Assembly (NCBI RefSeq): GCF_001186125.1
Contig: NW_014039762.1
Location: 1-42,232, forward strand
Direction: 5' to 3'
DNA from: Sphaeroforma arctica JP610
Taxonomy: Eukaryota
DNA: 42,232 nucleotides
In this document: positions 8,301-33,560 of the stretch, piece after piece
How positions within the stretch are numbered: position 1 is the stretch's first letter
Layout of the letters: every line of letters starts with the position of its first letter
Program-made: the position numbers and the translations under genes
Notes under the pieces: model-generated
What the model was told of the DNA's origin: nothing
What the model saw: the letters and a program-made list of their open reading frames with translations, nothing else
The model's database searches: none

Positions 8301-11300
8301 TGTATATCCGATATAACTGAACTTGCCATCCACTACACATGTATATTAAGAATATCTCGAGGCGCCACCGTATGTCCTTATATACAGACCTGGTTGCAAA
8401 GAGTCGTTGCACAGTCAAATTGGTACTATGAGATGACACCAATTGACCGGCATTCAACAACACGACATGCAAAGACACGTCAGCTGGCACCTTCATACAC
8501 ACACATCTAAGTGTCCCATCCCTTTATCATTAACCACCCTGTTATTCAGCCAACGTTAAGTAGAGCCTGGAGAGAACAAGATAACGATACCGTGCACGCA
8601 CACTACAAGCTCAAAGCGCCCGCTCACTGAAATATATGGATAACAGGTGAGGATGTCCCGATTCCCTAAGATGCGTCTACAAATAGATTCTATGAACCGT
8701 ACAGCTGTGTACGCAGGAATTCTCTGATTTACTAGGACGCGGTTGTACAAAAATGCTATTGCACTTGATATACATNNNNNNNNNNNNNNNNNNNNNNNNN
8801 NNNNNNNNNNNNNNNNNNNNNNNNNNNNNNNNNNNNNNNTATATATATATAAACATATGTATACATCGATCATTCCTCTGACATACGATGATGCAGGCGT
8901 ATTCGCAATCAGATGGCCGAACTCGCCCAGTAGGTAACTGCCTACTTTGACCATTGTTTCGTGCACAGGCGGCGAACTGAGAGCCTGTAAGATATACACG
9001 AGAGTGATTTAAGGGCCAAATAAGGTGGAATGAAAGTGAAATGCAGGTGACATATAGGCGAAATATGGAATGTTGTGCACACTGATTTGAGCAATTTACT
9101 CTGACATTTTAACGTTTTACCAGGCATTGAATATCACGTAGCGTGTACTATATGCCCCAGCCGTTGTGTTCAGCGCATCAACTGCTAGCACCGTATCTAT
9201 CACTTCTGTGGATAACGTATACACATGCAGACAAGACGTGCTCATGTCAAGCAATGGTGAACAGATGCAGACCTTTGTGAACCCGTTTGTTATAATAACT
9301 GACCATGGAGCTGTATACATGATTTGACAACCTATCACTATATCGCGACAATACTTTAGAAAGATATTATACACAATCAACCCGGACAGACACCAGATAA
9401 GACCGACTACTAGGGCGGCTGAAATGGCCGCATCTGGCAAAGTGATGTAATTGTGCATACAAATAAGTGCATACAACTAACCTGGAAGCAAACGCGGCAC
9501 GCATACTCCTGCACATCCTGACGGTTGGTGATGATTTGGATCACTCGTTGCCAGACCTGAAATGTGAGAAATTAGGACCAATTTTTCGTGTTCAGTATTT
9601 GGATTCCCAGTCCAAACTGATTTAAGCAGTGGCTATTTGAATTGTGTTAAGGATCACTACGACGTAAATTGATCAATGCGTGGTACCCACGAATTTGCAC
9701 ACGTCTGTCTACAAACGCTTCCTCACTTGCGACTTCACCTTCGCATTGGTGTAGCTCAGTCCAGAATCAATTTGAACCGAGTTGTAGGCTACCCGTGCTA
9801 GGTTGAAGGTCACATCGACGTAGAACGGATGCTCTCGTGATACCGACAATACTACACGCGTATAACATCACACACATATTAAGATATCGATATCACTTCT
9901 CACAGGTGCAGCTTAGGCACTTGACCTAAGACTGGCATAAACAACCCGCGCTATGAGAAGGAATACATAGACAGAACGGATGCTCTCGTGATACAGACAA
10001 TACTGCACGCGCACATAACATTATGTAGATATTCAGATACCATACTACACGCTTATAACATTACACACATATTCAGATACCACTTCTCACTTGGTGCCGC
10101 TCAGACACTTACCTCCAGACTGACATAGTCGCCGGCGACGCGGGTTAGGTTGAGGATCACATCGACATAAAACGAATAGTCTCGGGCCTCAGTCTCAGCC
10201 AGAATGGCAATGCGTAGCACCATTTCCTCGCGGATGATGTATTCTGTGAGGTGCCACAAATGATATATAATATTATATGATGTATTCTGTGAGGTGCCAC
10301 AAATGTTATATAATATTATATGATGTATTCTGTGTGGTGACACAAATGTTATATAATATTATATGATGTATTCTGTGAGGTACCACAAGTGTTATAAAAT
10401 ATCATATGATGTGCAAGTCATCCATGCATGTTCTGTGTCGCACGATCCCGATGCGTGTGTGCTCTATATACACAGCCCGTTGAGTGGTCGTGCCGAGCGA
10501 CCTGTACTTCTTGGTACTAGCTACAAGGGGTATACCGTATACCGGGTGCATCTACGCTTTAAGTCGGTAACAGAAAGACGATGCATGTCCCTAATTGGGC
10601 TGAATAGCGTTATACGAAAGGGGGAGAGGAGGGGGGGGGGATGTAAAACCCTAAAACCCTAAAAACCACTTGCCTGCGTGCTCTAGGAAGCCAACAAGCG
10701 CGGTGATGATGGTGACCGCATTCTCTGGGCCACACATCTTGAATAGCAGATCCAAGGCCCTGCCAGATGGGTAGAGAGTATTAGTGCGAGTGGGGGTTGT
10801 GGTATCACAGAGTCGGCAAGTACGTGATATGAGGCACCTGTCCTCAGAGAGATGTTCAGGGAGGATTTGTACTATAGCATTTAGAATGGTACTGTACTGA
10901 AGCCTTGAGACTCCAGAGGCTACCGATAGACGGCATTCGAAACAGAAGCTCATGCCGGCACAACACTCGCAGAATCACAGCCACGCAGTGGTCCACCAGT
11001 CACAATACTCGAAGTACAAAAAATAAACAGCAGTTTGAATCTGAAGAGCACTACATACACCCAACACACACACAAGTACCTACCTCCGTCGTACACTGAT
11101 ATCCCGCTCGAACTTGAGCGCCTGTATGATGTTGGGCTGGTGCTTGATGATGCCCTTCTTCGCAATCTCCAGCGAGCACAGATTGCACATGATGTCCAGA
11201 GCCATGTAGCGGGTGTTGGTCTCACGCACAGTCATGTACCGGCCCAGGATATCCACCGCCATCTCTGTGAGCTTCGCCTCAGTCTGCAGGTGGATAACTG

Positions 11301-12752
11301 TGTTCATGGCCTCGAACAGCACACTCTGGCGGCAGTTGTTGGTCTGCACAATCTGTGGGGTCGGAGCGGTCGCGGTCGGTATATAGATATATGGTTGGTT
11401 CATTTCTCCTATAACCTCATGTATTGCTATTATAAAATAACTATTTATAGTCCTCCCGGGGAGAGCACGGTACGCAAACAACCCATGGGTATGAGTTTTG
11501 CGTGACCGCCCTAACTGTGGCTATGGTATTGTTCAGGACAACTCCGAAACAGCGGCTATGCATGGCCATGGCTTTTAAATCGATATTTTTCTGTGGTTGT
11601 CGCTTGATTTGATTCATGTTCATGGGAATACAACACACCAAAGCAGGAGAACTACAGACAGTAGGTGTGGTGTAGGTGTGGTTGGGATAAGGTAGTGTTA
11701 CAGGCGGGTAATTGTCAGGTATTGTGTCGTCTTTGCATGCTACGACAGTATGGCTGCTAGATATGAAGTAGATTTTTTGTGGAAGAGGTATTATCTATGG
11801 GGCAGTAGACAGAATAAAAAGTATCGCGAGCCTTTGCTATCCCACTCATAGGAATACAGGGAACCCTACTTCTCACACTGACCAGTTCATTCTATGTCAA
11901 CATGTAATCTAGGTACAACTCAAGCTAACAAAACCAGTACTACAACTAAAAAAAACATGGATACTTTAATACAATACAATACAAGGTCGCGTACCCTGCC
12001 ATACTTTGACCACAGGAGTCTCTGTCCGTACGAGACCTAGACGGTAACGGCAAATGATATTTTACGCATACAACCATAAACCGTGAATTGGCAATACTAA
12101 TCCATGAAGGAATGCGGTCTGGACAGGACCTCTGCTCATTGACGCAGCCTCTATCTCTATACACGCACAGTGTATTTGAACACGTGATCAATGTCCCTAC
12201 CCTGACCAAGTCATTCTTTACGAAGATGCGGTCCAGACATGACCCGAGCTCCACCAATTGTACACATGCATCAAATATCGGATTAATATTTGACACTAAA
12301 TCCTTAACCGAATACACACACATGCCAATAAATTACAATCAAGCACCCCTCAGCCTTGCCCAGATCATTCTCTGCAAGTATGAGATCCAGACAAGAGAAC
12401 ACATATCCTCACACAAACGACTTTTAAACCAATACACAGACCGAATCTACAGACCATGCACTCACTAGACAAGCGCAAGACCTGAAGTCCTACCTTAACT
12501 AGATCGTTCTTGGCCAGTATGCGATCTAGACAGAATCTGAGCTCTTCCTTGACAGCAGCGTCAGTGGGTGGGGGGTATGTCTGGATTAATCGCAGGATCT
12601 TAACTTGGATCCAAGGAGCTGGCACCTGCGATAGTTAAAGAAAACTAGCTTTGTGTGAAGGAGAAATAAACCTGGATGTATCGTAGGGATGCATCTGAAT
12701 GGAAGAGCTAGTACTTTTTTGAAACATGATGAACTTGGGCCACATACATACG

Positions 12753-17929: not shown

Positions 17930-18940
17930 ATTGGAAGAAGTGGTCAGCAAATTCCCATTTGAAACTTGGGTCAAGTGAGTCGACGATGGAGGATGTGTGC
18001 TGGGTCAATTCCGGCCGGTGCTGACAAACAAACTGACACCATCGAGTGCACCATGTATTTGCTTGCTGACCTACTATGTAGCGCACCCACCTTTGTGGTA
18101 CGGATCGGGTCTGCACCGTATAGTGCCGTGGAATGGGTTAGTGCAAAGTATGAAATACCGAGTAGGACCAGGTTATCCGTCCTAATTCGGTCGAGGAGCG
18201 AGATTGGGGGTAAGCCAGTGCCTCATCAGACCACGGATGCACTTGATATGTTCTAGCTTGCCTGGATAGGAAGTATTATAAGCGGAATCAACAAGCGCGA
18301 TGACTTGGTTTGGACCGAAATTTGGAAGTAGTACTTCAACAGCGTGATTAGCCGGTGTATGGGGGACATCTGTTGATGTGTCAGAGACGGGTGAGGGTAC
18401 GGTGGATGTTCTACATGCTGGAGAAAGGATCCGAGGTGTTCGTGACAGAAGATCCAGATTTCTTGGAAGTCATGGCGCTCCTGTAATGAGCCTACCAGGA
18501 TGCGTCGAATCAGTTGTTGAATGTAGGTAAAGTGGATGGTGGTTAATTTGTGGCTACCGGGGCAGACAGGGCAGAGACAGCCGTCAGTGCGGTAGTCGAG
18601 CAAAGTAAACATGTATGTATTTGTTACAACCATAGCACACAGCCGGATTAGTGTAGGCTCAAAGCATCGGTGGAAGCTGTCGTGTCTGGCTTTGTCTCGA
18701 TTTGAGGTTGGCGGTTAATCCATGACCAGTTGGTAGTAGTATTTGTGCCGGGCCATTGCCGCAATCTCCTTGTTGAGTTCTTCCTAATATTGTCACAGCG
18801 TTGGCGGAGTGCTACAAGGTAGGGTGTATGCCCGCCCGTGATTATGTGTGCAGTTTTCAGGTGGGCATAGATACTGTACGGGAAGCGTAGTGATGGTTTG
18901 TCGTGGGCCCAAGCGGGTTGCGATGTAATAAGCCGGGCCT
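17930..18940 (-). pseudogene. Possible degraded 3' fragment of a non-LTR retroelement ORF or other decayed coding sequence
   Basis: GC-richer island with broken coding-like frames including CPVCPGSHKLTTIHF, reminiscent of the C-terminal CxxC..H zinc motif of LINE ORF2. No RT motif seen. Confidence 0.25.
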
Positions 18941-18957
18941 CTACATTAGACTCTATG

Positions 18958-19110
18958 TTATAAACGTACTCTTAAAGAGTACGTAAATTATAAACGTACT
19001 CTTAATAGTACGTGGAGCTTAAGTTTCTTAGATGTTCTCTTATTAGTACGAGGAACTTAAGTTTTCTAAATGTACTCTTAATAGCACGAAGAACTTAAGT
19101 TTCCTAAAAT
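18958..19110. repeat. Diverged tandem array (30-38 bp units) built around tactctta(a/t)(t/a)agtacg and cttaag palindromes
   Basis: Four units are visible. The first contains the perfect inverted repeat cgtactct-taa-agagtacg. Confidence 0.75.
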
Positions 19111-19851
19111 GGTTTTTAATGGTTTTATTAATTAATATCTTTTCTATTATACATATCAGATATTCGGACGAGGCCATTAAAAGGCCTGAGTAAAATACCA
19201 AACATAAAGAGCTGGTCTAGCTCTATTAATAGAACTTCATTTACTTTCCAACTTTATTTATATCTGAATACTTCGGTAGCGAGATGGCTCAACCGAATAT
19301 AGGTTTCTAAAGACTATTAACGTTACCTAGTTGATCCTCCGATCAGCCAACCAGATGTGCCAGTCTGATGAAGGCTAAGTCGGTAATTCTTGATAAGTGG
19401 CATGTTATTGGTTAAGACAATAACTAAGGACATCAAAAGTTTTTTATTTCTTTCATTTCTTTTTCTACAGATAGGATTTTATTCGCCCCAATGAAACATA
19501 CAATAGTTTCTAATAGAGCGACAACGAAACACTAAATAAAACCCCTTCGGCGGTGACAGTACTTAGAAAATTATATATCGGCAATGTCTCAGCCTCACAA
19601 TCCCTCAGAGTATTGCTGTTTTCACGAGGCATGCCTAACTTTACTAAATGTCTTATTTCGTTTATTTACTTTGATATTTTCACGATACTTAGAATTTACC
19701 TACGCGTTTATTTATTCTAAGGCGTTAATATCGCCTTGAGAGACCGAATCTTACAGCGACAGAGGGGTGAGTGGGTTTGTGCTGGCCATTGAGTTGAGTT
19801 GTTTTCCCAGGAAACCTCCAAGGTAGTCTGCGAATGGTCGCGTGGGGAGCA

Positions 19852-20779
19852 TGTAAAATTCGGTCTCCTCTAGGCTGACTATACGATACCAAGACGTTTA
19901 CGTTAATAAGACAATACGTGAAAACGTTAAAATACAAAATGTTAAAATAAGTTTAGCTTCAGCCCTTGGTAGTGAGCAAAAGATTAGGGGATTATAGACT
20001 GAGACTATTGTCTATATGTTCCGCTCTAATCACTCACTACTTCGGTCTAGATTTATTTATGTTTTAGTTACTAGGTATCATTTCATTTTCGTTACTCAGA
20101 CTAGGTATCATTTCATTGGACACATATTTTACATACCACGCCTCGAAACAATTATCTACTCAAAATACCAATAAATTATCTCTAAGTCCAACTTAAGAAA
20201 ATAAAAAATCAAATCAAAATACCAAGCTGGTGCAGTATATATCTGTACCTAAACCCCATCACTTGGTACCTAGCTCTCCATCCCATTTAAGGCTTTGACG
20301 GGCACATCTAGTTGGCTGGTTAGGAGGAATCAAAACCAGGTTGTCCTAAATTCTAACAACTCTGATCCTGTCCTTTTCTCAGTGGATTATCTTGCTCTGA
20401 GATTATTATCGAATTATACCATAGGTTTGTACCAACAACCATTTCATTTCTGAGGCCCTCTCTCATGGTACTCCCATTAATTAGAGATTCCCAAAGTGTC
20501 ATTTTCAGGTTTCAGATTTGTATCATTCCTATAATTTGTATCATTCTAAATTTCAGTGGTAAAAACCAACCTATATTTGGAAAGCCACCTAATTGTCCAC
20601 AGTAGAGTCTCATACTCTACTGAGTACTATCACACTTTCAGAATCTTGAGTATCTCAATTCTTGTTCATGTTCAAAACGTTAGACGTATTCCAGTATTAT
20701 AAGTATAACCGTTAATACGTTAGTACGTTTATAATATATGTTAATTGTGCAATACTATTAGGAACCCGCTATTTCTACA
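19852..20779 (-). repeat. 3' LTR (928 bp)
   Basis: TGTAAAAttcggtctcctctagg...ggaacccgctatttcTACA, a direct repeat of 27898-28815. I counted 8 mismatches in the first ~175 bp, plus small indels. Confidence 0.95.
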
Positions 20780-20797
20780 TAGCCCCACCCCCCTTCA
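20780..20797 (-). promoter_or_regulatory. Polypurine tract (plus-strand primer) of the LTR element
   Basis: Minus strand reads gaagggggggtggggcta immediately before the 3' LTR. Confidence 0.85.
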
Positions 20798-20960
20798 GCT
20801 TGAAAATTACAATGTTGGCTTATATGTGGTATTAGCACATAGACTCGAAAAGCTCACATGAATTGTACAAGCGAAAAGAAAAGAAACGGGTTTCGATCAT
20901 ATAACGGCCTCAATGCTTATGTTATATTCTCTTAGACAAAGTATACTTAGACGTTATATG

Positions 20961-22390
20961 TTACTCGGTCACTCTATTACGTTTGGGCTTTGGTCCTTGT
21001 GGTCCCCGATGGTGGATGGGACGTGCCTTAATGCCTTTTGGAGATACGTACATTCCATGCTGTTTAAAGCTGGGAATGTATGATGTCTGTTGATAGATCT
21101 CAACCACGTCGGGTTGCTTGTCCGATGGTAAGATTGCTTCTGCATCAGCCTTATTTTTGTGTAAGCGTTTGCGAAATTTCTTATTAAAGGCATTTAGTAT
21201 ATCCGGATCATCAAATGCTGATAGAGGAAGATTATACTGTGCTCCATCGGCGAACTCCGTAGTGTAATATGACATATCCTCATGTTTGTACTTCCCTAGA
21301 ATCTTTTTAAATTCGTAAGACATAAGGGGTGTATTAGCTTCACGTGTGCGACGAAGGATGATCACTGTCGTCGGGATTCGATGCGACCCGATATTTAAGG
21401 CACCAGAGCCGTCATCGTTGTTAACTTCATGCGTTCCGCTCTTCTTATCGGCCACTGAGATCACAAATGGTCCAATATATTTAGCCGTAAGCACAGTTGT
21501 ATCGGAGTTGCGAGCCATAATGTTGACTATATCGCCTACCTCAAACTCGACTATTTTCTTGGTATCTTTCCATCGCTTTTGTCTCTTCTTGAGAGCGATG
21601 TCCTTCATCTCCTTTAAGCAAGGATAGACCACATATCTGGTCCGACGCAACTTCTCTAATCATGGTAACACATGGTCATCTTGAGACTCCTTGTTGAAGG
21701 GGATCTGTAATTCACTATAACGGCCCCGGAAATAGTGAGCGGGTGTTGTACCAGTGACTGAATCAGGGAATTCGTTCATCTGTGTCTGTACCCAGTTGAT
21801 TGAGTAAGGCCACATGTCAGCATCATCAAGGAGTGCTGCTCTCGCATGAACTCCTTCATCTTTCTGTGTCGTACCTCGTTCGCACCTTGTGTCTGAGGCT
21901 TGTAAGGTACACCCATCTTATGGCATGATCCCGCAACGAGTAACAGTGTCGTCATGACATCTCCTGTAAACTTACTACCGTTGTCGGAACATACAATAGC
22001 TGGCCAGCCGAAATCTGCGAAGCACTTACATATGCACTCAGCCACAGTTTGTGTCGATTTGTCTTTCAGCGGATACAAAACATTATATCTTGATGCGACA
22101 TCAAACACGTGACAGACATACTTATCCTTCGTGTGTTCGGACGTGGGTAGCTCAACCAAATCAATGATAACCCGGCGCCACGGCTCGTCTTCTGATACGC
22201 TGCGTAAAGGTGCGTATCCGTAGCGCTTGATCCGGTTAACTTCGCCGTTGTTACATTCGTGATACACCTGAGATATATATTGCTTGAGGTTTGGGTGTAC
22301 GATTCCGTACCTCTTGCAATCTTTCTCAGTGCTAACCTTATCCATGTGCTTAAGAGCATGATTTTGTCTTAACCACTTCAGAATCGCCTC
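20961..22390 (-). pseudogene. DDE integrase with degenerate HHCC zinc finger, GPY/F motif and C-terminal chromodomain-like module
   Basis: HALKH...HECNNG (last Cys lost), PWRRVIIDLVELP, DVASRY, VCSDNGSKF, PYKPQTQGANE. After a frameshift near 21835: WPYSINWVQTQMN...TGTTPAHYFRGR, then a TGA at ~21660, KYIGPFVI, and YEFKKILGK...YYTTEFADG...AFDDPDILNAF (21177-21317). Confidence 0.9.
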
Positions 22391-22822
22391 ATGTGATTTA
22401 CTTGTTACATCGAAATCAGGAGGTGAGGATTCCACCGCGTCATCACCTGGACTCGAAGACTCGTCTTGCCCAATCTCGCCTAAAGCTTCTACATCGTGAA
22501 TCCGACTAATGTTTGATCTATCCAATAGTTGGGTCACATGATCATATACCTCGGGAAAGTCATTCATCAATTGCTTAAGCAATCGAGTTTCTGCTTGGTA
22601 TGCAGTTTCCCTGTCAGACCGTATTTTGTTGTAGAAGGCTTTCGCTAGTGATGCGCTCCTCTTTGATTCCTTGGAATTTGGCTGTATCTCAGTTACACAT
22701 ACTGCAGGTGCTTGTGTTGTCCCAGTCTCTGATTGAGACTTAGTATTCAAGAGTGGAATCTTGGATTCCTCAACTTTCTGTTTGAAAGTTTTGGATGGTG
22801 TCCACTTGGTTGTTCCAACTGG

Positions 22823-23224
22823 ACCTATTCGACATATAATAGTATGTCGCCAAGGCGTCTTTTGGATTGCACGGATACCCTGGTAGAGAAAAGTATCTAC
22901 CTTTCTATCCACATAGATCGGCTCACATTGTATCATTGAGATCAACTGCGGTAGCCATTTATCTGAGTGTCTTAAAGGACAACACAACGTGATGGTAGCA
23001 TCTTGAATATGTACATAATTCAGCAACTGTGGTATTAATAACCATGGAGGATTTGCCCAGGCATTTTCGAGAGACAAATCAAACTGGAATCCATCTCCTT
23101 TCGGATGTTCCAGTGTCCGGTACCTCGGCAGTAGTGCATTGTGATGAGCAGCAAACATATCTATGGTATGTGGTCCATATATGTTGTCAGCGATTTTAAA
23201 CCACTTAGGATTGACCATCCAATC
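22823..23224 (-). CDS. Phage Dam-like DNA N6-adenine methyltransferase domain within Pol
   Basis: Uninterrupted ~134-aa segment: DWMVNPKWF, GPHTIDMFAAHHNA (SAM-binding-type D-x-FA motif), DGFQFDL, WANPPW (catalytic NPPW at 23042-23053), and LCCP..SDKWLPQL. Same motif order as the methyltransferase domain of DIRS1 retroelements and phage Dam (PF05869-type). In frame with the RNase H C-terminus upstream and the integrase downstream. Confidence 0.88.
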
Positions 23225-23269
23225 CGTAGCTAGTACCTCCCTAACCATCTTATTAAAGTCTGGTACGAA

Positions 23270-24470
23270 GCGAGACAACATGTCGGGTAAGTGATTGTGA
23301 ATACCCGGTATGTGTGTTACGATCGTGTCATGCCACCGACTGACTAACTGTGAGTTAGGTTCGTGTCCTTTAGGTGTTGCAATGATTTCTGATCACATAG
23401 CACATTAAAGTGTGTGCCATATAGATCATCCTTAAAATGAGTGAGTGCAGTAACAATAGCCAAAAGCTCTTGTTGCACGGTTGGGTAATTGATCTGAGGC
23501 GAATTCATAGCTCTGCTAAAGAATTGTACATATCTCGGTTTCCCATCAATCATTTGATACAGAACGCCCCCGAGTGCCATGTCGGACGCGTCTGTTGCTA
23601 CCATGAATGGAATACTATCCTTTGGTGGCTGGACTACTGGTGCCTGCTGAACCACTGTTTTGGGCTGCTTAGATGCGTCATCACATTCTTTGGTCCACAG
23701 TGCGCCTAGTTTGCCTTGATGACATCTCAAATGTCCAAAGGGCTTTAAATAACTTGCCAAATGTGGTACTCCGTCAGACAAAAAGTTGCCGAATCCGCAC
23801 ATGCGGTTGACATCCTTACCCGTGGTAGGAGTTCTCCAGTCTAGCAAGTGGTCGACCTTCCCGGGATCGATCATGATTCCATCCCCGGATACTCGGTAAC
23901 CCAACAGCTGAATCTCGTTACCACCGAAGTGACATTTCTTACTGTTGACCTTAAAGTTGTGCTTGTTGAGTCTATCTAGAACCTCTCGCACAACCTTGTT
24001 GTGCTCCTCCTTGGTTTTGATGAATACCACAATGTCATCAATGTATACTTGTACATTGTCCATGTCTCTAAACAAGTCTTGCATAATTTGTTGAAAGAAC
24101 GCAGGTAACATGTGTAACCCAGATGGGGCACCTTTAAACGAATATTGCTGACCCTCCCAGGTAAAGGTGAAATACTTCCGATGTGGTCGGTAGATCTTCA
24201 TCTGGTGGTAGTCCTGCGTCAGGTCGATAGTGGAAAATATCTTAGCTCCCTCCATGCGCCTGAGCGGTTCGTTTATCCTTGGTAAGTGAAAATTGTGTGT
24301 CGGTATCAAAGCGTTAATTGGGCTCATATCCAAACACACTCGAACTTTCTCCAATGTCCCGTCAGAGTTGAATTGGTCGACGGCTAAAAGCGCTAGGTTG
24401 ACGGGAGTCAGCTAATAGTTGACTGCGATCACTTCGTCATCTAACCATGCTTTAACTTGCTCTCGTACGA
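23270..24470 (-). pseudogene. Reverse transcriptase and RNase H of Ty3/gypsy type
   Basis: RVCLDMSPIN, FSTIDLTQDYHQ, FTWEGQQYSFKGAPSGL, VYIDDIVV, KCHF...LLGY. RNase H: VATDASD, YPTVQQELLAIV, CDQKSL, and after a frameshift/deletion near 23340, RWHDTI..HIPGIHNHLPDMLSR. Confidence 0.95.
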
Positions 24471-24749
24471 CCTGCTCATGACGCCATGCAACATAGTTAC
24501 GTGTAAGACACTTAAGCTTCGAGAAATCTACTCTCGTCAGGTCTAGACTAACGTATCCGTTATTGAACTTGAACTTAGCCCAGTCCGTGATCCGAATCTT
24601 GTCATTCTCGAAAATCAAGTCCTTGATTTTCTCTGTAAAGTGAGGGATCATCCCCTTCACAGTCTTTGAAGGTTTATATACCGGCTTCAACAAATTGTCG
24701 TCCGACTGATCCTTCTGTGGTCCAATGTTAGTAGGTAAGCCTGTAATTG

Positions 24750-25060
24750 TTATTCCTAATGACAATAAATCACCCATACCTACTATGAGATCATAGTCTG
24801 GTGAAGTGTTACATATGACTGCCTTAGTAATTGTAGTACGTTGGTCTGTCAATGTAAACCTAAAATCGATGGCCATTTCTCTGCAAGTGATCTCCCTTTC
24901 ATCAGCTAATTTCAACATAGTTGGCTCTGACTTACGAGTAACGTCTGTGATTTTACAGAATCTAGAGAATATACATGAAATTTGCGAGCCCGGATCTAAC
25001 AACGCTTTTATTTCATGTCCGTTAACTCGTACGTCAAGGATTACACGCTCGTCTTGAGGT
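24750..25060 (-). pseudogene. Retropepsin-type aspartic protease
   Basis: VRVNGHEIKALLDPGSQISCI...YDLIVGMGDL (D-P-G in place of D-[ST]-G). Same frame as Gag and RT. Confidence 0.85.
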
Positions 25061-25098
25061 GCGTCCTATTGTCTTAGTGACAAGACCCGGTATGTTTG

Positions 25099-27865
25099 TC
25101 ACTTGACTTCAACTTTTGGTTTCACCTTGCACGTATGCTTGTGGTAACCTCCAGTTCCGGTACAGTCGGCACACTTCTCGATAAAGTGCTTACACTTTTC
25201 TGCGTGCCTTCCATTCCATCTGCCATTCGGCTCCTGTTGGGTCATTCGCCAATTGCAATCAGTCTCACTACAGTTCTTGACCTTCCTATTCCTGGGCTTA
25301 GGGTTGCCTGCCAGCGGTCCATTTCTGATGGTCTGGTTACCCTTAGGGATGACATTGTTCTTGTGGCTTTCAGAAGCATTTGTATTTTTGTTCTTATTGC
25401 CACCCTTGTCACCCCCTTTGTTTACCTTCTGACCTTCATTCATGGACTAAGAGTCTCGACCATTGCCTGATTCCCCGGTAAGATTGCCGTCGACATTCCT
25501 CTGAGCATTAGTAACTTTCACCACGGAACTAGGGCGTTTGGTAAATGTCTGATCCGCTCTCGTGTAAAATTCTGCCCAGGTTAAGTCCGCTAGCTTCATT
25601 ATACCGTAGGTAGGTCCCTCAATGGAGATCTCTCGTACCCTATCCGGGTAAGATTGATGCATATCGGCGTACATAATCTCTTGATCTCTCCTATGTAGGT
25701 TTGACTAAAAGATTGTCTGCACCCATAGTACACACATGGATAGCTTATCAGGTGACATCTCCTGAGTTTGAGCCCGTGACATGTGTGTGTCCAACTTTAA
25801 TAAGTAGTGGGACACCGGCGTTCCTTCTTCCGGTGGTATCATGATCGATACAAGCAATTCCGGTCGAGGGTCCGTCGAAAATAAGTGGACGATCATCTCA
25901 CTTTGCTCATTCCACGTTTTCAGCTTAGTGATCGCTTGTTTCGCCTTCTCTAACTTGTTATACTTGTAAGAGGACAGCTTAAAGCTCTGCTGCGCTTCTT
26001 CGAACCATAGGTTCTTTCGTAGATTGGCTGTAAGCATAATCTGTCCAAACTCTTTCAAAGACCTAGATAACAACGCCAGACTGCTAGTATCGATTGGATC
26101 CTTTCGGTCTTTTCGATCAGATCTGTATGTCGTTGGTAGTTTACTTATGTCCTTTACAAACTTCTTGCCTTCCACAGCCTTCTCGGTCTGAATCACTCTC
26201 AGTTCTGAATCAATCTTAGTCTGGAGATGCGTAGCCATTGTCATATAAAAACTAGCGGCATCAATCCTACCTAGATCCATCGCTTCGAGTGAAGCTGCCC
26301 CAGCCTTGTTCATTTGAACAGTGAATTCAGCAATTTTCAGATCACTACTAGAATGATCTGATCCCTTCTTTTCTGATTGCATTTGACCATGCAGTCAGTT
26401 ATCTGCCTCATCCTTTGATCCATCGATCTGTTCAATGTTAGTGAACGCTTCGGATGGGGCAGCATCTTTCTTCGTCTTTGAGATAACCGCTGGGGGCGAA
26501 CTGTCTTCCGATGACGAAAATAATTTTCTCGCTTTCACCTGATCAGGTTTCGGCTCTTCGGTCGGTCTGTCCTTCTGAAATACCTCTGGGGCATTCTGTG
26601 GATTCCTTCCGGTAATGGATTTGGATTAGACTCTTGTTCAGATGCCATTCGCGACACTACTGTTGCGTCCAATCCAGGCGAGGGTTGATTTTCGGGTGAT
26701 GAAGATCGGATTCTGTTTGCCTCTCCATTGCCTGACAACATCTCGAACGCCAATATGGCTTGATAGAGTGCCAAATGGTTTGATATCAAGTCGGGAAGAT
26801 CTACCAGAAGATCCCGAATTGCGTACCAAATTAAGTATGCAAAGCTTCCATCGCTCCTAGTTCCGAATACCTCCGGCAATATCTTTTGAAACTGACGGAA
26901 AAGTTTGCGTGCTTGCTTACCGTCGTCAGTTTTCTTTAGTTTTAGCCGATTGTAATACCTATTATCCTTAAACAAATCGTAACCAAACTTTCTTACCGCT
27001 GCATACATAACATACCTCGGTGAGATGGTACCATCTGGTTTGGTCTTCAATACGTCCGGAAAGAACGTTCCATACGTATTTCGAAACAACCATGCCCTGT
27101 TGGCCCGCCGTCGGATCAACTCTCGTTGATTCTCCTCCTGAAGATCAATCTGTGCCTGATAGGAATTACCCAGATCAAAGTTCTGTCGCCAAGCCGGTCG
27201 GAGTTCCTGCTGTCCGAATCGTCGTCCTGACTGTGAAATGTCTGGGCCACATCATCCGGACCTATATTCACGAATCGCAGTTGTTCTTCCGATACATTGA
27301 TTTGGGGTTGATCCAAAAGTGCTGGTGGATTCTACTTCGAGTCATCCTCCCCTGATTCATTCTGACTTTGATCCTTCGCTGCGGCTTGCTTTTTCTTCCG
27401 CTGCTTAGTAGGTCTCAAATCATGAACCATTGGTTGGTAGTCCTTCAGGAAGGCTCTCATATCCCTTGCTATCATGTGATACGTAGGATCTCGCCTACGT
27501 GCTTTGCGCGTATCCACTGGTGGAGATGGTACATCTGATCCCAGTGCATGTCGGAGTTCCTATGAAGTTGAGTTGTCCGATGAATGCGTTTTCTCGGCTT
27601 TTCCCTTTCGAGATCTCGCCTTCTTCGCAGGTGGCTTCTGTGGCTCTGTAGTCACATTACCTCCAGATGCACCTATACCCGAGTCAGCCAACTTCTTACG
27701 TTTTTGTTTAGTCAGAATTGGTACTCTTTGTCTCGGTGTGATCTCTGTTACGTCAGAATCCACTGATGATGCCGGGGGTGTTTTCAGCTTTTTATCGCCT
27801 TCAGTAAACCAATTTACTTTTGCAGCCTTAGCTACATTCGCTGCCTTATTGTTTCCTTTCGTCAT
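25099..27865 (-). pseudogene. Gag-like region with long N-terminal extension and atypical Cys/His knuckles
   Basis: ATG 32 nt downstream of the 5' LTR. ORF fragments 27560-27865, 27332-27517 and 27116-27316 share one frame. Fragments 25705-26382, 25447-25674 and 25099-25443 share the PR/RT frame. C-terminal CADCTGTGGYHKHTC knuckle. Gag identity is inferred from position. Confidence 0.7.
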
Positions 27866-27897
27866 AATATCGATAGCGTATTATAAACTTAAAAATA

Positions 27898-28815
27898 TGT
27901 AAAAGTCGGTCTCCTCTAGGCTGACTATACGATACCAAGACGTTTACGTTAATAAGACAATACGTTAAAACGTTAAAATGCAAAATGTTAAAATAAATTT
28001 AGCTTCAGCCCTTGGTAGTGAGCAAAAAATTAGAGGATTTTAGACTGAGACTATTGTCTATATGCTCCGCTCTAATCACTCACTACTTCGGTCTAGATTT
28101 ATTTATGTTTTAGGTACTAAGACTAGATATCATTTCATTGGACGCATATTTTATATTTCACGCCTCGAAACAATTATCTACTCAAAATAACCAATAAATT
28201 ATCTCTAAGTCCAACTTAAGAAAATAAAAAATAAAATCAAAACACCAAGCTGGTGCAGTATATATCTGCACCAAAACCCCATCACTTGGTACCTAGCTCT
28301 CCATCCCATTTCAGGCATAGACGGGCACATCTAGTTGGCTGGTTAGGAGGAATCAAAACCAGGTTGTCCTAAATTCTAACAACTCTGATCCTGTCCTTTT
28401 CTTCAGTGGATTATCTTGCTCTGAGATTATTATCGAATTATACCTACTAGTTTGTACAATCATTCTATGTNNNNNNNNNNNNNNNNNNNNGACCACCTCT
28501 CATGGTAGTCCTCATTAATTAGAGATTCCCAAAGTGACATTTTCATGTGTCAGATTTGTATCATTCCTATATTTTGTATCATTCTAAATTTCAGTGGTAA
28601 AAAACCAATCTATATTTGGAAAACAACCTAATTGTCCACAGTAGAGTCCCATACTCTACTGAGTACTATCACATGTTCAGAATCTTGAATATCTCAATAT
28701 TCATGATCAAAACGTTAAACGTATTACAGTATTATAAGTATAAACGTCAATACGATAATACGTTTATAATATACGTTAATTGTGCAACTACTATTAGGAA
28801 CCCGCTATTTTTACA
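27898..28815 (-). repeat. 5' LTR (~918 bp, contains 20 N)
   Basis: TGTAAAAgtcggtctcctctagg...ggaacccgctatTTTTACA, with a 7-bp terminal inverted repeat TGTAAAA/TTTTACA. Confidence 0.95.
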
Positions 28816-31229
28816 AACAGGCCACAAAAGTGGAGTAAATTTGTTTAATGTTTGGGAAACCTAGGGTATTTAGTGCCCGTGATGATAGCTGCTACTAGGA
28901 TGAGTGCTGAAGTATAGCGTTCAAACAGGGAGTACAGCGCATCTTTCCATATAGGCGGAGCCCAGGCAACAATGTTCAGGCCATCAGTCGGTTGCGGGAG
29001 TGTCGCCAGCTAAAGCCATGGAGCCATAAGCGCGGAAAGAGGCGATACTCAGGGACAATGGCTACAACCAGGGATTTTGTAAACTTCGAGGGATATTTCT
29101 ATGTTTTAAACTATGTTATATCAACTAAAATACAATTTAAATCAGTTAGGATTTAGCAGTGGTAGCTTGTGTAAGAATGATCGGGACTGCCTCTTGGTAA
29201 GAGTCTTAATATCCTCGATCACACAGGACATACCTCTAGCTGTTCTTTATTGAATTATTTTCACTAGAAGTACTAAGTGTTCACGACCACATGTCATTTG
29301 TAGATAGACATAAGAACGTAAGTCAAGTTAATATATTAGCTAATATAAATAAAGTTCTATCTAAAGAAAAGTTAAAAAAACGAAAAGACTTATTGGATTT
29401 TGGAGATTGGCGGGAAGACCAAAACCTGTAAGTAGTAGTTCAGAAATTATAAAATTTAGTTTATAATATCTTACATCTACTATCGTCTCAAATAGGTCCA
29501 AGTAAATGGGTCCTACCAAATACTCAGGCTAATGAAGCCATCAAAGTGAATTTAGAACACTTTGGAAATATTGGAAAACAACTTGTCTTAAATACAAATA
29601 ACACCCAATGTGTTATCTCATTTGATCTAGATATTTTAGACTGACCGGAGGCCGTATTTCTACAATTTCATATGTCTGGCGAGGTTGATCCCTGGTATTC
29701 CGTGAGAAAGTGGGAACCCCAAATATTTAGAGCGTTTCGGCTTGGCATGTGTGGACGCCATCTTCAGAAGGAGGTAGCGTGTGTTCCAAGGTGCCACGCC
29801 TTGCAACTACCTGGCGTGATTACTACGGTATATAAGTGACAGGCAATGTGTCATAGCGGCTTGGTATGATTATAATATATTTAAATAAATGTATTTCTAG
29901 GGTAGAAAATTTTGGTTTAAGAGGAGATATCGAAAAATAGAGTAGATCAGTTCTCTGCAATCACGTATATTGGCTCTGGTTCACTGAACAACTTAAATTT
30001 TACTACTGATTCAATGGTTTCTTGTACTTACATAAGTGCGCTATATGCTACATATGAAAAAGTGACCCCACCAACCTAATGCTATGGATAACACTGCTAG
30101 CCTAGTGCTAGGTTAGTTGGTTCCATCAATCGCACAATTTACTACAAAACCCTAAAGATGATGAGTTTGTATGATTCTTATCCTTGATCAATTTTGTGAT
30201 GGGAATTGATCAACAATTGGTACAAGACGAGTACTATTGCCTAGCGAGAAAGGGTCAGGGAAATTTGTTCAGAAGTGGTGATTCCAGCGAGGTAGATTCA
30301 GAGAAGTCTACCCAGAAGTGGATCGTGCGGCCTGAGATCGAAGTTCTTGCTATCGTACACGTTCCATTTTTTTTAGTAAAAAAAGTGAATGACTAAACCA
30401 ACCACTCTAGTACTAGGATAATTTAAAACTCTAGTACTAGTAAGAATACAAAAAGACTATACCGACCGCAACTTGGACTTTTTGGTGAAATGGGGGAGCC
30501 ACTATGTTCCAGTTGAAAGCCTCCACGAATGACCCGTTGTACGAGTATAAGTGCAAAAGACAAATACTTTTATCTTTTAAATCCTCATTGTGAAAACCAA
30601 GTGGTGAAAGGAGAATAACAACACTAGTTTGTGTTTGTGGAGTACTTGTCGAAACAACGGTTTCATGAGGTAGCATGTTTGGTAGGACCTGTGCTGGCAG
30701 ATACCTACGCAAGGGCTGATATACATTGCAATATTTTGCCTTTAGCAATGAATCTTATGCAAGATAAGTGAAGTAGACATTAGGATAAAGACAGAATGAT
30801 AGTAGATAAGTAGAACGTTCGTATGAATTAAAACAGGAGGTTAACGTTGATTGTTATGTATACGTAGACCTACAGCTCAGGAAGAACCATTGTCAGGAGG
30901 TGTGGTTCGTTGAGTCAAGTGTCAGGTTCTAAACGATACTTCCATTGTCACACATGTGACAGCGCTACCTAAGGCACTGTCATAGGACAGCAGGTAATGG
31001 GATAGGTTGGAAGCGTACAACCGGCAGCACCACATAAAGGGTTGTCAAGAAAAACTATAAAAGGCAGATGCACTGGCTAGTGTCAAGGATAAGATAGCAG
31101 TTGTGTAACCAACTTTATTACACCTGGACAACAGTGACTTGCTGGCGTGTATCAGGTCATGGGCTGAATCAAGGTGGGTTTAGATTTAACTAAATGGACA
31201 TCATGCACAAGAAAAGCGTCTACGGGTGT

Positions 31230-33560
31230 CGCCGATATGGGTCTACTGGATTCTTTGTGTACTACAAGTGTCAGAGAAGGTTTGCGTTGAGTGCTGTGTT
31301 TAGTGGTGACTGAGATATCATTATAACCAGAACTTCAAATGATATCTGATATGGAAGGATAATGTGTTTTGCGTGGTACCATAAAGTGAGTTAGCTGTAT
31401 TTACAGTATCGTGTTTAAAACTAACAGAGAACACAACATCAGTACGTCCTGATATACTGTGCTGCTGAATATTTTCCTGAAGAACAGGAATATAAAGTTT
31501 GCGATAGAAGTGAGGACCGTCCTTATACACTCAATGAATAGAGCTAGTAAAGGCCTGTGATGTACCCCATAAAGTGCTGCAGCAACTCTTGGCAGACTTT
31601 GAAACCATTGCATATGACTCTAAGTATATGCAATATCTTATCTTACCTGACGTGAATCTTCAGAAATCTGAAGCCATACCGCGGTATGCGAGTTACTTCG
31701 ATAAGGGCACTGTAAAGTTAAACCACTTAAGCCAAAAGTAAAGGCGTGGGTGGCGGCAGGGGTAATGGAGAGGATAGATAAGTGTTCAGAGTTGTGTTCA
31801 GCACCGCATCTAGTGTACGAGAAACCAAGTGGCAAGCCTGTGACTGTAGATGGTTGGCGCTGCTGCATTAACCTCAAACATGTAAATACTCGATTGCGAG
31901 CGGAGTCATACTACAAACCTACGTAGCGAGAGCGTTGAAATGCAGACGGTGGGTAGCACAGTAGATTCAAGAAAGTATTTGTCCTTCGTCACACCTGAAG
32001 GTCGGTTCGCGTTTGTAGGATTGCCTTTAGGTCTTAAGGAGGCGTCTTGGTGTTGCCAACAGATGCTGGGGAAATGTGTTTGCGGGACTACAAGAGTGGT
32101 TTGTTACATAGATGACATATCGTTCGCCCAGGATGACGCGCGTTAACACTCGTTCTGTCTGCTGGCACTGGTGTCTTGCTGTGTCCATCATGATTTACAG
32201 CTAAGGTTTTACACGTACAGTGTGGCTCAGTACATGAAAAAAATGGTCATTTTAGGCAGATTTGTAGACTACAGAGGGTCAAAGATTGACATGGGACGTT
32301 CAGAGACGTCACTTACTCTTAGTGAACCAACGTCTAAGGACTTGTTAAATAGTGATACCGCACTGTTGGATGGTGGTTAAGGTATGTCGCAAATTTTGCG
32401 CGCATACTGGCCCGCTCTCTGCCCTGTTACAGAACAAGGCGCTACAAAAGCTTTCGGGGCACTCAATGAGTTAGCCGTGCGGTACTGGCAGAGCCGCGGC
32501 CAGATGCTTGTGAATCTGCGGGTGTGTACGGAGTTATGCCTGTCATCAGAACAGGTGTCCTACTAACCCTCTGCTTCTTCGCTTCGGGGTATGACAGTGC
32601 CCAGCTAGCATATCACATCACCGACAAGAAAGCTTTGGCTCTAGTCTATGAGATTTTGAAGAATAGAGTCCTTCACCGGGTAATTCTCCCTGCCCGCTTG
32701 TACTCGAGTAAGTCACGCGCGACCTTTCCGGATGATGTCCGAGGTCGACGTATGTGACGATACTATGATGTCCTTCGGAACTTCGACATTGAACTGATAC
32801 ATGTTACGGGGGTATAGATAATACATTTTGTCTCGCCTGTGTATGCCTGTGGGCCCAAGCTTGCGGGTAAAGGGGCAAAGGCTGGACTTCACCGTGTCTT
32901 GGGCGGAGGCGGTACTAAAGGAGGTCAAATCTGATCAGAAAAAGTGTACATTGGTCTATCTTTATTGGCCATCGGCTGCTTGGCTTCCACTCTTGTGCCC
33001 TCTTCTTACAGACGAACCTCTGCACATTCCAAGTCGGGTGGGATGGGCACTCGTCTACCCGCTCGCCTTCGTCCGTCATACTCGCTTGCTGTCTCGTCCC
33101 ACGTCCGCGTGTGGTCTCTCCGGAGCTGTAGCACAGTTGCGTTTTTTTTTTGCTTCAGATGTAAACTTAGGGGGAATAGTTCGGGGCAGAGTAATTATAC
33201 GTATGGATGAGTGTCGACGTATGTATCAACAGCAGCAGGGCAACAAAGCTCGTTGATACCTGTTGGTACTTGTCAGATACGTTTTTGACGAGATATTGCG
33301 CACCATAAGTTGTGATCACCATGGTTTGTACCAGCTGTATCGACATAGCAGGATACCCCTGTTAAGCAAGTTTTCGACGTTAAAGTCAAGTAATTACGTT
33401 TGTATCGCACTTACTTGGACGTCTTTCTTGCGGATTCGGTGGAGAATGCCTCTGCGGTGGAGACAGCCCGTTTTCTACGGGTGTCAGGAGACTACCAGGT
33501 GTGACTCTTCCGTGAATGAGAGGGGCGTTATCCTGCTTGCTATTGGTCTTGTGGGTGCTC
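31230..33560 (+). mobile_element. Highly degraded LTR-type retrotransposon pol relic (PR-RT-RH-MTase remnant, possible IN)
   Basis: GLLDSLCTTSV (~31240, protease-like). VKAWVAAGVM...DGWRCCINLKHVN (31738-31890). LSFVTPEGRFAFVGLPLGL...CYIDDI. RNase H remnant FFASGYDSAQLAYHITDKKALALV. Then CTLVYLYWPSAAWLPLLCPLLTDEPLHIP, and weakly LAIGLVG. No LTRs recognised. Confidence 0.8.

What the first reader, a model, noticed from the sequence alone, without database searches (positions are those of the whole stretch)
21177..24470. Integrase-encoding Ty3/gypsy LTR retrotransposon with a Dam-like N6-adenine methyltransferase fused between RNase H and integrase
Seen: the RNase H terminal motif HIPGIHNHLPDMLSR runs in frame into a ~134-aa domain with DW..P..F, DMFAAHHNA, DGF and WANPPW motifs (22823-23224). 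A ~145-aa linker then leads, still in frame, into an HHCC/DDE integrase. All of this lies inside two direct TG...CA LTRs with a PPT. Established: NPP[YFW] is the catalytic motif of amino-(N6A/N4C) methyltransferases, and a phage-Dam-like domain directly after RNase H characterises DIRS1-group retroelements, which use a tyrosine recombinase rather than a DDE integrase. Canonical Ty3/gypsy Pol has no such domain. Inference: this is a gypsy/chromovirus-like lineage carrying its own adenine methylase, either captured from a DIRS element or shared with one. It could mark its own cDNA or the insertion site with 6mA, for self-recognition, protection, or mimicry of the 6mA that marks active chromatin in several unicellular eukaryotes. 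I cannot verify from the sequence alone whether such elements have already been described.
Basis: partly seen in the sequence, partly recalled or inferred. Interest (0 to 1): 0.92.

Follow-up and report, generated by a model that had tools for sequence, protein, structure and literature searches.

The report
Broken gypsy retrotransposon carrying Dam-like methylase
This is a broken copy of a gypsy-type jumping gene in a single-celled relative of animals that carries a conserved, predicted adenine-methylating domain between its RNase H and integrase; the design was described in a 2026 preprint for this very species, and what this copy adds is a likely overlooked chromodomain.

Summary
A 9-kb Ty3/gypsy element (19852-28815, minus strand; LTRs 94% identical, PPT, 4-bp TSD) has a Dam-like domain (PF05869; 22823-23224) 15 residues after RNase H and in frame with a DDE integrase. 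Two uninterrupted relatives keep the same order, and the domain is as conserved as RT (66-69%; linker 26-30%). The host gene identifies Sphaeroforma arctica. This scan also noted such elements in other genomes. Corrections: this copy is broken (two frameshifts, two stops in Pol; HHCC has lost its last Cys); no PBS was found. Two additions. (1) The integrase ends in a divergent chromodomain without a full aromatic cage, although the preprint says the lineage has none. (2) The domain's closest predicted folds are small phage Dams, and its closest solved structure is the RNA cap methylase PCIF1/CAPAM, which the preprint's text does not mention. This favours a hybrid or single-stranded substrate. 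Activity is unproven.

The parts
19848..19851 (.). left target-site duplication (4 bp, AGCA)
   Evidence: a joint that fits the empty site was seen in 3 of 4 laid runs
19852..20779 (-). 3' LTR, TG...CA, 928 bp
   Evidence: 834 of 887 aligned bases identical to the 5' LTR
20783..20796 (-). polypurine tract, 3 nt before the 3' LTR
21177..21320 (-). divergent chromodomain at the integrase C-terminus, below Pfam detection, aromatic cage incomplete
   Evidence: Pfam Chromo not hit
21348..21548 (-). integrase GPY/F motif and SH3-like C-terminal domain
   Evidence: (Ty3 integrase is the top Foldseek row, E 3e-3)
21660..22168 (-). integrase catalytic core with D-D-E; frameshift near 21842, stop at 21662
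   Evidence: Pfam rve E 5.6e-12
22241..22360 (-). integrase zinc finger, last Cys replaced in this copy
22361..22822 (-). poorly conserved linker of about 150 aa
   Evidence: 26-30% identity among the window copy, P0001 and P0002
22823..23224 (-). Dam-like (PF05869) N6-adenine methyltransferase domain with DxFA and NPPW motifs
23270..23700 (-). connection and RNase H; frameshift near 23360-23370 and a 6-codon gap against both relatives
   Evidence: Pfam RT_RNaseH_2 E 2.4e-27
23890..24411 (-). reverse transcriptase (YIDD); in-frame stop at 24414 just before it
   Evidence: Pfam RVT_1 E 5.5e-26; best PDB sequence match Ty3 RT, E 9.5e-52
24775..25035 (-). aspartic protease (DPG)
   Evidence: Pfam Asp_protease_2 E 1.2e-5
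25066..27850 (-). gag-like region, interrupted by stops; Cys/His cluster near 25130-25270
   Evidence: position and translation only; the three ORFs scanned gave no gag Pfam hit
27898..28815 (-). 5' LTR, TG...CA, with a 20-base N run; no PBS found behind it
28816..28819 (.). right target-site duplication (AACA, one mismatch to the left copy)

Best explanation
This is a broken copy of a Ty3/gypsy DAM-LTR retrotransposon of Sphaeroforma arctica whose Pol carries a conserved Dam-like domain that, in intact copies, likely methylates adenines on the nascent cDNA during reverse transcription, which would seed the host's active-chromatin 6mA mark on new insertions. Shown: the order PR-RT-RH-MT-linker-IN-chromodomain, the fold, the intact motifs, conservation at the level of RT, and the host. 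Inferred: (1) the domain stays attached to RT-RNase H after processing, because only 15 residues separate it from RNase H while a variable 150-aa linker separates it from integrase, and DIRS elements have the same RH-MT fusion; (2) the substrate is an RNA:DNA hybrid or single-stranded cDNA inside the particle rather than bulk double-stranded DNA; (3) host AMT1 then maintains the mark (the preprint's model); (4) the divergent chromodomain helps integrase engage chromatin, probably not through a classical methyl-lysine cage. Odds: identity as a DAM-LTR about 0.95; catalysis on nascent cDNA or hybrid about 0.45.
For: Same order in uninterrupted P0001 (1400 aa) and P0002 (1376 aa). Of 32 longer hits scanned with Pfam, 8 carry RT, RNase H, Dam and an integrase domain in that order (P0013, P0016, P0017, P0034, P0045, P0048, P0082 by Pfam alone, plus P0001), and P0010, P0012 and P0015 join them when the integrase is sought with the window's own core. 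Identity among the three closest copies: MT 66-69%, RT 63-72%, RH 67-70%, linker 26-30%. N-P-P-aromatic is kept in 16 of 19 LTR-type rows and 119 of 152 aligned domains. Fold: phage Dam models are closest (Foldseek E 2.4e-9, TM 0.69-0.75 for the top rows); CAPAM fills the top 5 PDB rows and ranks first in VIA-align (Z 10.3, rmsd 3.5, 144 aligned; T4 Dam Z 8.0, rmsd 2.7, 106 aligned). [quoted passage not shown] The preprint reports more 6mA and more expression on S. arctica DAM-LTRs than on other LTRs. Host gene is 99% identical to SARC_08642, on a contig of the window's length.
Against: No activity has been shown: the preprint's expression of eukaryotic DAM domains in dam-minus E. coli gave no rise in 6mA. 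Iyer et al. judged DIRS1 domains likely inactive. P0001, an open relative, has CPPW in place of NPPW, and two other LTR rows have NIPF and HPPW. The 6mA excess on DAM-LTRs is a correlation and could follow from transcription alone. A shared fold shows no substrate, and the CAPAM lead over the next VIA row is only 1.3 Z units. No GATC-like self-target signature survived controls. The protease cleavage sites were not determined.
Confidence: 0.55

Rival explanations
1. The domain is a catalytically weak or dead methyltransferase fold kept for binding nucleic acid or SAM, or as a structural appendage of RT-RNase H; the 6mA seen on these elements comes from host AMT1 because they are transcribed.
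For: Negative heterologous assay; Iyer et al. call DIRS1 domains likely inactive; 3 of 19 LTR-type rows and 33 of 152 aligned domains depart from N-P-P-aromatic, gaps included.
Against: DxFA, the DAF-like motif and NPP are the most conserved columns (D34 97%, A37 95%, P71/P72 97-98%, N70 82%); the window copy and P0002 keep NPPW.
Confidence: 0.2
2. The domain works like PCIF1/CAPAM on RNA: it puts m6A on the element's own transcript (cap-proximal or internal) to stabilise, translate or package it.
For: Closest solved structure is CAPAM; 13 of 74 aligned members hit Pfam PCIF1_WW weakly (best E 0.0016); Iyer et al. place DIRS1 domains in the PCIF1 clade; explains the negative DNA assay.
Against: Sequence and predicted folds are closer to phage DNA Dam (67 of 74 members hit PF05869, best E 9e-17; viral PCIF1-like models first appear at rank 13). 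CAPAM's cap binding uses its helical domain (PMC8287941), which this 134-aa domain lacks.
Confidence: 0.15
3. The domain travels with integrase and methylates double-stranded cDNA or the target site at integration, like a phage Dam protecting its genome.
For: Closest predicted folds are phage DNA adenine methyltransferases; in frame with integrase.
Against: The negative assay on dsDNA in E. coli; the domain abuts RNase H, not integrase; DIRS elements carry it without a DDE integrase.
Confidence: 0.08
4. The arrangement is an artefact: a misassembly or a nested DIRS fragment in one copy.
For: The assembly has N gaps; no laid contig spans the whole element; one contig in each of 3 of 4 runs joins 22341 to 23360, skipping the domain.
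Against: Two independent uninterrupted proteins and more distant LTR polyproteins share the order; RT and MT trees group the same LTR rows; all 30 bins are covered in all runs, and contigs bridge the RH-MT and MT-linker junctions. The skipping joint has only 28 letters on its short side and also removes the RNase H end and part of the zinc finger.
Confidence: 0.02

Closest known systems
Ichthyosporean DAM-LTR lineage (Fernandez-Moreno et al., bioRxiv 10.64898/2026.05.21.726589, May 2026)
   Same: Same host species (S. arctica), Ty3/gypsy organisation with a DIRS-related Dam domain, Asn-Pro-Pro pocket, same proposed 6mA role.
   Different: The preprint says the lineage lacks chromodomains; this element has a divergent one below Pfam detection. 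The preprint says eukaryotic DAMs lack the first catalytic half by alignment with prokaryotic Dams; here the 157-aa model aligns with whole methyltransferase cores. Its sequences and figures could not be seen, so membership of its clade was not tested by tree.
DIRS1-group retrotransposon methyltransferase domain
   Same: Homologous domain directly after RNase H; most hits among the top 150 look like DIRS RT-RH-MT proteins.
   Different: Direct TG...CA LTRs, TSD, protease and DDE integrase; RT falls on the LTR side of the tree (SH-aLRT 99).
Small phage DNA N6-adenine methyltransferases (PF05869, PHROG 111)
   Same: Best sequence family and best predicted-structure matches.
   Different: 16-22% identity in the top structural rows; embedded in a retroelement polyprotein; substrate unknown.
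PCIF1/CAPAM cap-specific adenosine methyltransferase
   Same: Closest solved fold; NPP-aromatic motif.
   Different: 11-16% identity; no WW or helical domain; not a stand-alone host gene.
Chromoviruses (Ty3/gypsy with integrase chromodomain)
   Same: GPY/F motif, SH3-like domain and a C-terminal chromo fold.
   Different: Cage positions are Y/F/G here and H/F/N and S/F/G in the two closest relatives, so neither a group I cage nor the conserved Trp; RT placement among chromoviruses not tested.

Membership tests
Ty3/gypsy LTR retrotransposon | Direct LTRs with TG...CA ends | tested here: met
Ty3/gypsy LTR retrotransposon | Order PR-RT-RH-IN | tested here: met
Ty3/gypsy LTR retrotransposon | Ty3-type RT | tested here: met
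   best PDB match Ty3 RT E 9.5e-52, next family E 7.5e-27; the tree had no named references
Ty3/gypsy LTR retrotransposon | DDE integrase with HHCC finger | tested here: met
   D, D, E present; HHCC complete in P0001 and P0002, last Cys lost in this copy
Ty3/gypsy LTR retrotransposon | PPT and 4-6 bp TSD | tested here: met
   PPT; 4-bp TSD with one mismatch and a joint that fits the empty site
Ty3/gypsy LTR retrotransposon | Primer-binding site (tRNA or self-priming) | tested here: inconclusive
   no TGG after the 5' LTR; no complement in either LTR of 9 or more bases exact, or 11 or more with one mismatch; host tRNAs not available
DAM-LTR retrotransposons (2026 preprint) | Dam domain inside a non-DIRS LTR element | tested here: met
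DAM-LTR retrotransposons (2026 preprint) | Asn-Pro-Pro-aromatic pocket | tested here: met
   NPPW
Ichthyosporean DAM-LTR lineage | Host is Pirum, Abeoforma or Sphaeroforma arctica | tested here: met
Ichthyosporean DAM-LTR lineage | No chromodomain by Pfam search (the preprint's method) | tested here: met
   no Chromo hit for the window, P0001 or P0002
Ichthyosporean DAM-LTR lineage | No chromodomain at all (as worded in the preprint) | tested here: not met
Ichthyosporean DAM-LTR lineage | Falls in the preprint's clade in the Dam tree | not testable with these tools
   its sequences and supplements were not available; the window's Pfam E-value (1.5e-5) lies near its 1e-5 screen threshold, so this subfamily may or may not be in its set
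Ichthyosporean DAM-LTR lineage | Raised 6mA and expression | not testable with these tools
   no methylation data; only contigs could be laid
DIRS1 group | Tyrosine recombinase, no protease or DDE integrase | tested here: not met
   protease and DDE integrase present; no recombinase hit in the 7 element ORFs or sub-ORFs scanned
DIRS1 group | Inverted or split terminal repeats | tested here: not met
   direct LTRs
DIRS1 group | DIRS-type RT | tested here: not met
   window on the LTR side against 26 DIRS-like rows
N6-adenine methyltransferase, PF05869 type | Profile match | tested here: inconclusive
   25.1 bits against a cut-off of 28.1; close LTR relatives pass at 31-54 bits
N6-adenine methyltransferase, PF05869 type | Rossmann methyltransferase fold | tested here: met
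N6-adenine methyltransferase, PF05869 type | Methyl transfer to DNA adenine | not testable with these tools
   negative in E. coli for other representatives
PCIF1/CAPAM | WW and helical domains around the methyltransferase domain | tested here: not met
   134-aa domain between RNase H and a linker; no PCIF1_WW hit for the window; domain layout from PMC8287941
Chromovirus | Chromodomain at the integrase C-terminus | tested here: met
   divergent
Chromovirus | Group I aromatic cage (Y24, W45, Y48; PMC3350952) | tested here: not met
   Y/F/G in the window, H/F/N and S/F/G in P0002 and P0001 by alignment
Chromovirus | RT inside the chromovirus clade | not tested
   no named chromovirus references were in hand

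The most novel reading that the evidence does not exclude
Ichthyosporean DAM-LTRs are cryptic chromoviruses, and their 'Dam' belongs to one small-methyltransferase clade with phage PF05869 Dam and the cap methylase PCIF1. Fused to RT-RNase H, it methylates the RNA:DNA hybrid or the element's RNA rather than duplex DNA. That would explain the failed E. coli assays, and it makes the long-open question of what the DIRS/LTR methyltransferase does directly testable.
Probability: 0.25. Interest if true: 0.65.

Novelty: already known. Interest (0 to 1): 0.22.

Why it matters
As an architecture it is no longer new: the kind, the species and the hypothesis are in a 2026 preprint. It still offers two checkable corrections to that account. 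A hidden chromodomain would change how the ichthyosporean lineage is classed and how many independent captures are counted. The PCIF1-like fold points to hybrid or single-stranded substrates for an enzyme whose activity has never been shown. If retroelements mark their own cDNA with the host's active-chromatin base, that is a direct way of escaping silencing.

Tried and rejected
No whole genome is held for this window, so copy number and intact genomic copies could not be searched. Sequence searches of the PDB with the domain alone or with its 74-row profile found no methyltransferase. Pfam missed the chromodomain in the window, P0001 and P0002, and gave only sub-threshold Chromo hits for 6 of 6 relatives tested. 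GATC looked enriched inside the element (54 against 35.5 in dinucleotide shuffles, 0 of 300 as high), but it ranks 36th of 256 four-mers under a trimer model and is unremarkable in Pol under synonymous-codon shuffles (25 against 22; 246 of 1000 as high): rejected as a self-target signature. No tRNA-type or self-priming PBS was found. The AU test rejected holding the 17 LTR rows together (p 0.0012), but two ungrouped rows that sit among them (P0011, P0060) were counted as 'others', so the test is void and was not repeated. Both trees use hits chosen for likeness to the window's domain, are unrooted and carry no named references, so they neither confirm nor refute the preprint's four or more transfers; the bootstrap had not settled. 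No RNA holder was listed, which says nothing on expression. The two homolog searches for fused relatives found only P0001 and P0002. A paper search for the caulimovirus Dam assay found only the preprint. A complex prediction was not run: no binding is claimed.
Full report
What is there. The minus strand carries one LTR element from 28815 to 19852. The LTRs are 27898-28815 and 19852-20779, start TG, end CA, and share 834 of 887 aligned bases (K2P 0.062). A polypurine tract lies at 20783-20796. The flanks read AGCA and AACA. Contigs in 3 of 4 laid runs join 19849 to 28818, which is what an empty site with a 4-bp duplication would give, though the tool marks the letters between as not known. Pfam finds protease, RT, RNase H, Dam (PF05869) and integrase in that order. 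The best PDB sequence match of the RT is Ty3 RT (E 9.5e-52). No primer-binding site was found.

The observation. The copy itself is broken: a stop at 24414, frameshifts near 23360-23370 and 21842, a stop at 21662, a lost zinc-finger Cys and an interrupted gag. Some laid contigs differ in length from the window at both frameshift points, so these look like defects of this copy.

Not an artefact. Two uninterrupted proteins, P0001 and P0002, have the same order. Among the three, identity is 66-69% in the methyltransferase domain, 63-72% in RT and 26-30% in the linker, which points to selection on the domain. A search of 1.84 billion representatives gave 1099 hits at E<=0.001, of which the best 150 were returned. 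I scanned 32 of the longer ones with Pfam: the closest are LTR polyproteins with the domain between RNase H and integrase, and others are DIRS-like RT-RH-MT proteins. An RT tree (41 rows) and an MT tree (48 rows) both put the window with the LTR rows against the DIRS-like rows (99; 99/92). Rows without enough RT were left out, the sample is biased towards the query, and the labels are mine, from domain content. Contigs of all laid runs cover all bins, and some bridge the RH-MT and MT-linker junctions; some runs may be the window's own source. Against: one contig in each of 3 of 4 runs skips 22342-23359, which also removes the RNase H end and part of the zinc finger.

The domain. Pfam Dam scores 25.1 bits, below its cut-off of 28.1. 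AlphaFold2 on a 74-row alignment gives pLDDT 90.3. Among predicted viral structures the closest are small phage N6-adenine methyltransferases (E 2.4e-9), with giant-virus PCIF1-like proteins from rank 13. Among solved structures the closest is PCIF1/CAPAM (top 5 Foldseek rows, E 4e-4 to 3e-3; VIA Z 10.3, rmsd 3.5, 144 aligned, ahead of DIMT1 at 9.0, M.TaqI at 8.2 and T4 Dam at 8.0). No PF05869-like methyltransferase was found in the PDB by sequence, so CAPAM is the nearest solved relative, not the nearest relative. N-P-P-aromatic is kept in 16 of 19 LTR-type rows. The reading of DxFA as the SAM-binding motif is recalled and fits the fold; SAM binding was not modelled.

A hidden chromodomain. 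After the GPF motif, 21177-21320 encodes a chromo-like segment. Pfam misses it. The ESM Atlas, restricted to named clusters, returned Chromo clusters for 26 of 30 hits (top score 0.91, 176 shared features). A profile built from ten relatives only scores the window's ORF at 12.1 bits, against a best of 9.9 in 3000 shuffles. The 12-row profile hits HP1-type chromodomains at E 1e-10, but that profile includes clear chromodomains. The model, also built on those rows, matches chromodomains at rmsd 1.6-2.0 over about 50 columns (Foldseek E 0.04-0.1) and VIA Z 6.9-7.0. Each line is moderate; together I put it at about 0.85. The cage positions are Y/F/G here, and H/F/N and S/F/G in the two closest relatives, so classical H3K9me reading is unlikely.

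Host. The neighbouring adaptin exon is 99% identical over 62% of the query to SARC_08642 of Sphaeroforma arctica, recorded on a contig of 42232 bases.

Prior art. I read the whole main text of bioRxiv 10.64898/2026.05.21.726589; its figures and supplements could not be seen, and they may show this family's architecture or a chromodomain. It defines DAM-LTRs and names an ichthyosporean lineage in Pirum, Abeoforma and S. arctica that 'lacks chromodomains'. It reports more 6mA and expression on these elements, finds no activity in dam-minus E. coli, and proposes methylation of RNA-DNA intermediates followed by AMT1 upkeep. PCIF1 and CAPAM do not occur in its text. Passages of PMC4738411 place DIRS1 domains in the PCIF1 clade and call them likely inactive. 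The abstract of PMC9178792 gives PCIF1's order ssRNA > hybrid > ssDNA > dsDNA. Passages of PMC8287941, PMC3350952, PMC5890265 and PMC6338049 supplied CAPAM's layout, the cage residues and earlier methylase-carrying elements. A search for ichthyosporea, chromodomain and LTR retrotransposon listed three papers; apart from the preprint I saw only their listings, so the chromodomain point is 'not found', not proven absent. Earlier notes of this scan report the same kind in other genomes and none in this genome.

Mechanism. Shown: architecture, fold, motifs, conservation, host. Inferred: the domain stays with RT-RNase H, methylates adenines on the hybrid or single-stranded cDNA in the particle, and so seeds a mark that host AMT1 maintains after integration (about 0.45). 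Rivals are a dead fold (0.2), an RNA target (0.15), a duplex or target-site activity (0.08) and artefact (0.02).

Verdict. The feature is real and the kind is already known, in this species; this copy is defective. Interest 0.22, for the likely chromodomain correction and the substrate lead.

Noticed in passing
window 31964-33049, + strand: Remnant of a second, very different gypsy-like element: RT and RNase H pieces (20-36% identity to DAM-LTR proteins) followed by the C-terminal half of the same methyltransferase domain (own profile E 6.8e-8 at 32909-33049), without the DxFA and NPP motifs. No integrase was seen after it in the tblastn rows. It suggests a second Dam-bearing family in this genome.
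   Followed up: partly
window 19756-19851 and 28816 onwards: The flanks of the element look repeated elsewhere: the joint that fits the empty site has a higher depth than most other listed joints. The element may have inserted into an older repeat, possibly the one holding the remnant above.
   Followed up: partly
window about 18957-19755: AT-rich segment of about 0.8 kb with three 43-base repeats 38 bases apart. A loose contig end at 19756 resembles 18889-18920 by eye, as if this segment were a further insertion such as a solo LTR.
   Followed up: no
window about 25130-25270, - strand: The end of gag has two Cys/His clusters with spacings unlike the usual CCHC knuckle (read by eye).
   Followed up: no
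window 11083-11520, - strand, and neighbouring exons: Exon of the host AP-2 complex alpha subunit gene, SARC_08642.
   Followed up: yes
window 25060-27897: GATC is more frequent in the gag region than dinucleotide shuffles give (28 against 15.2), but trimer composition explains it.
   Followed up: yes
P0060: A 2144-aa hit with an endonuclease/exonuclease/phosphatase domain, then Dam, RT, RNase H and an integrase zinc finger: the Dam domain lies before RT here.
   Followed up: no
P0001: An uninterrupted close relative has CPPW instead of NPPW.
   Followed up: partly
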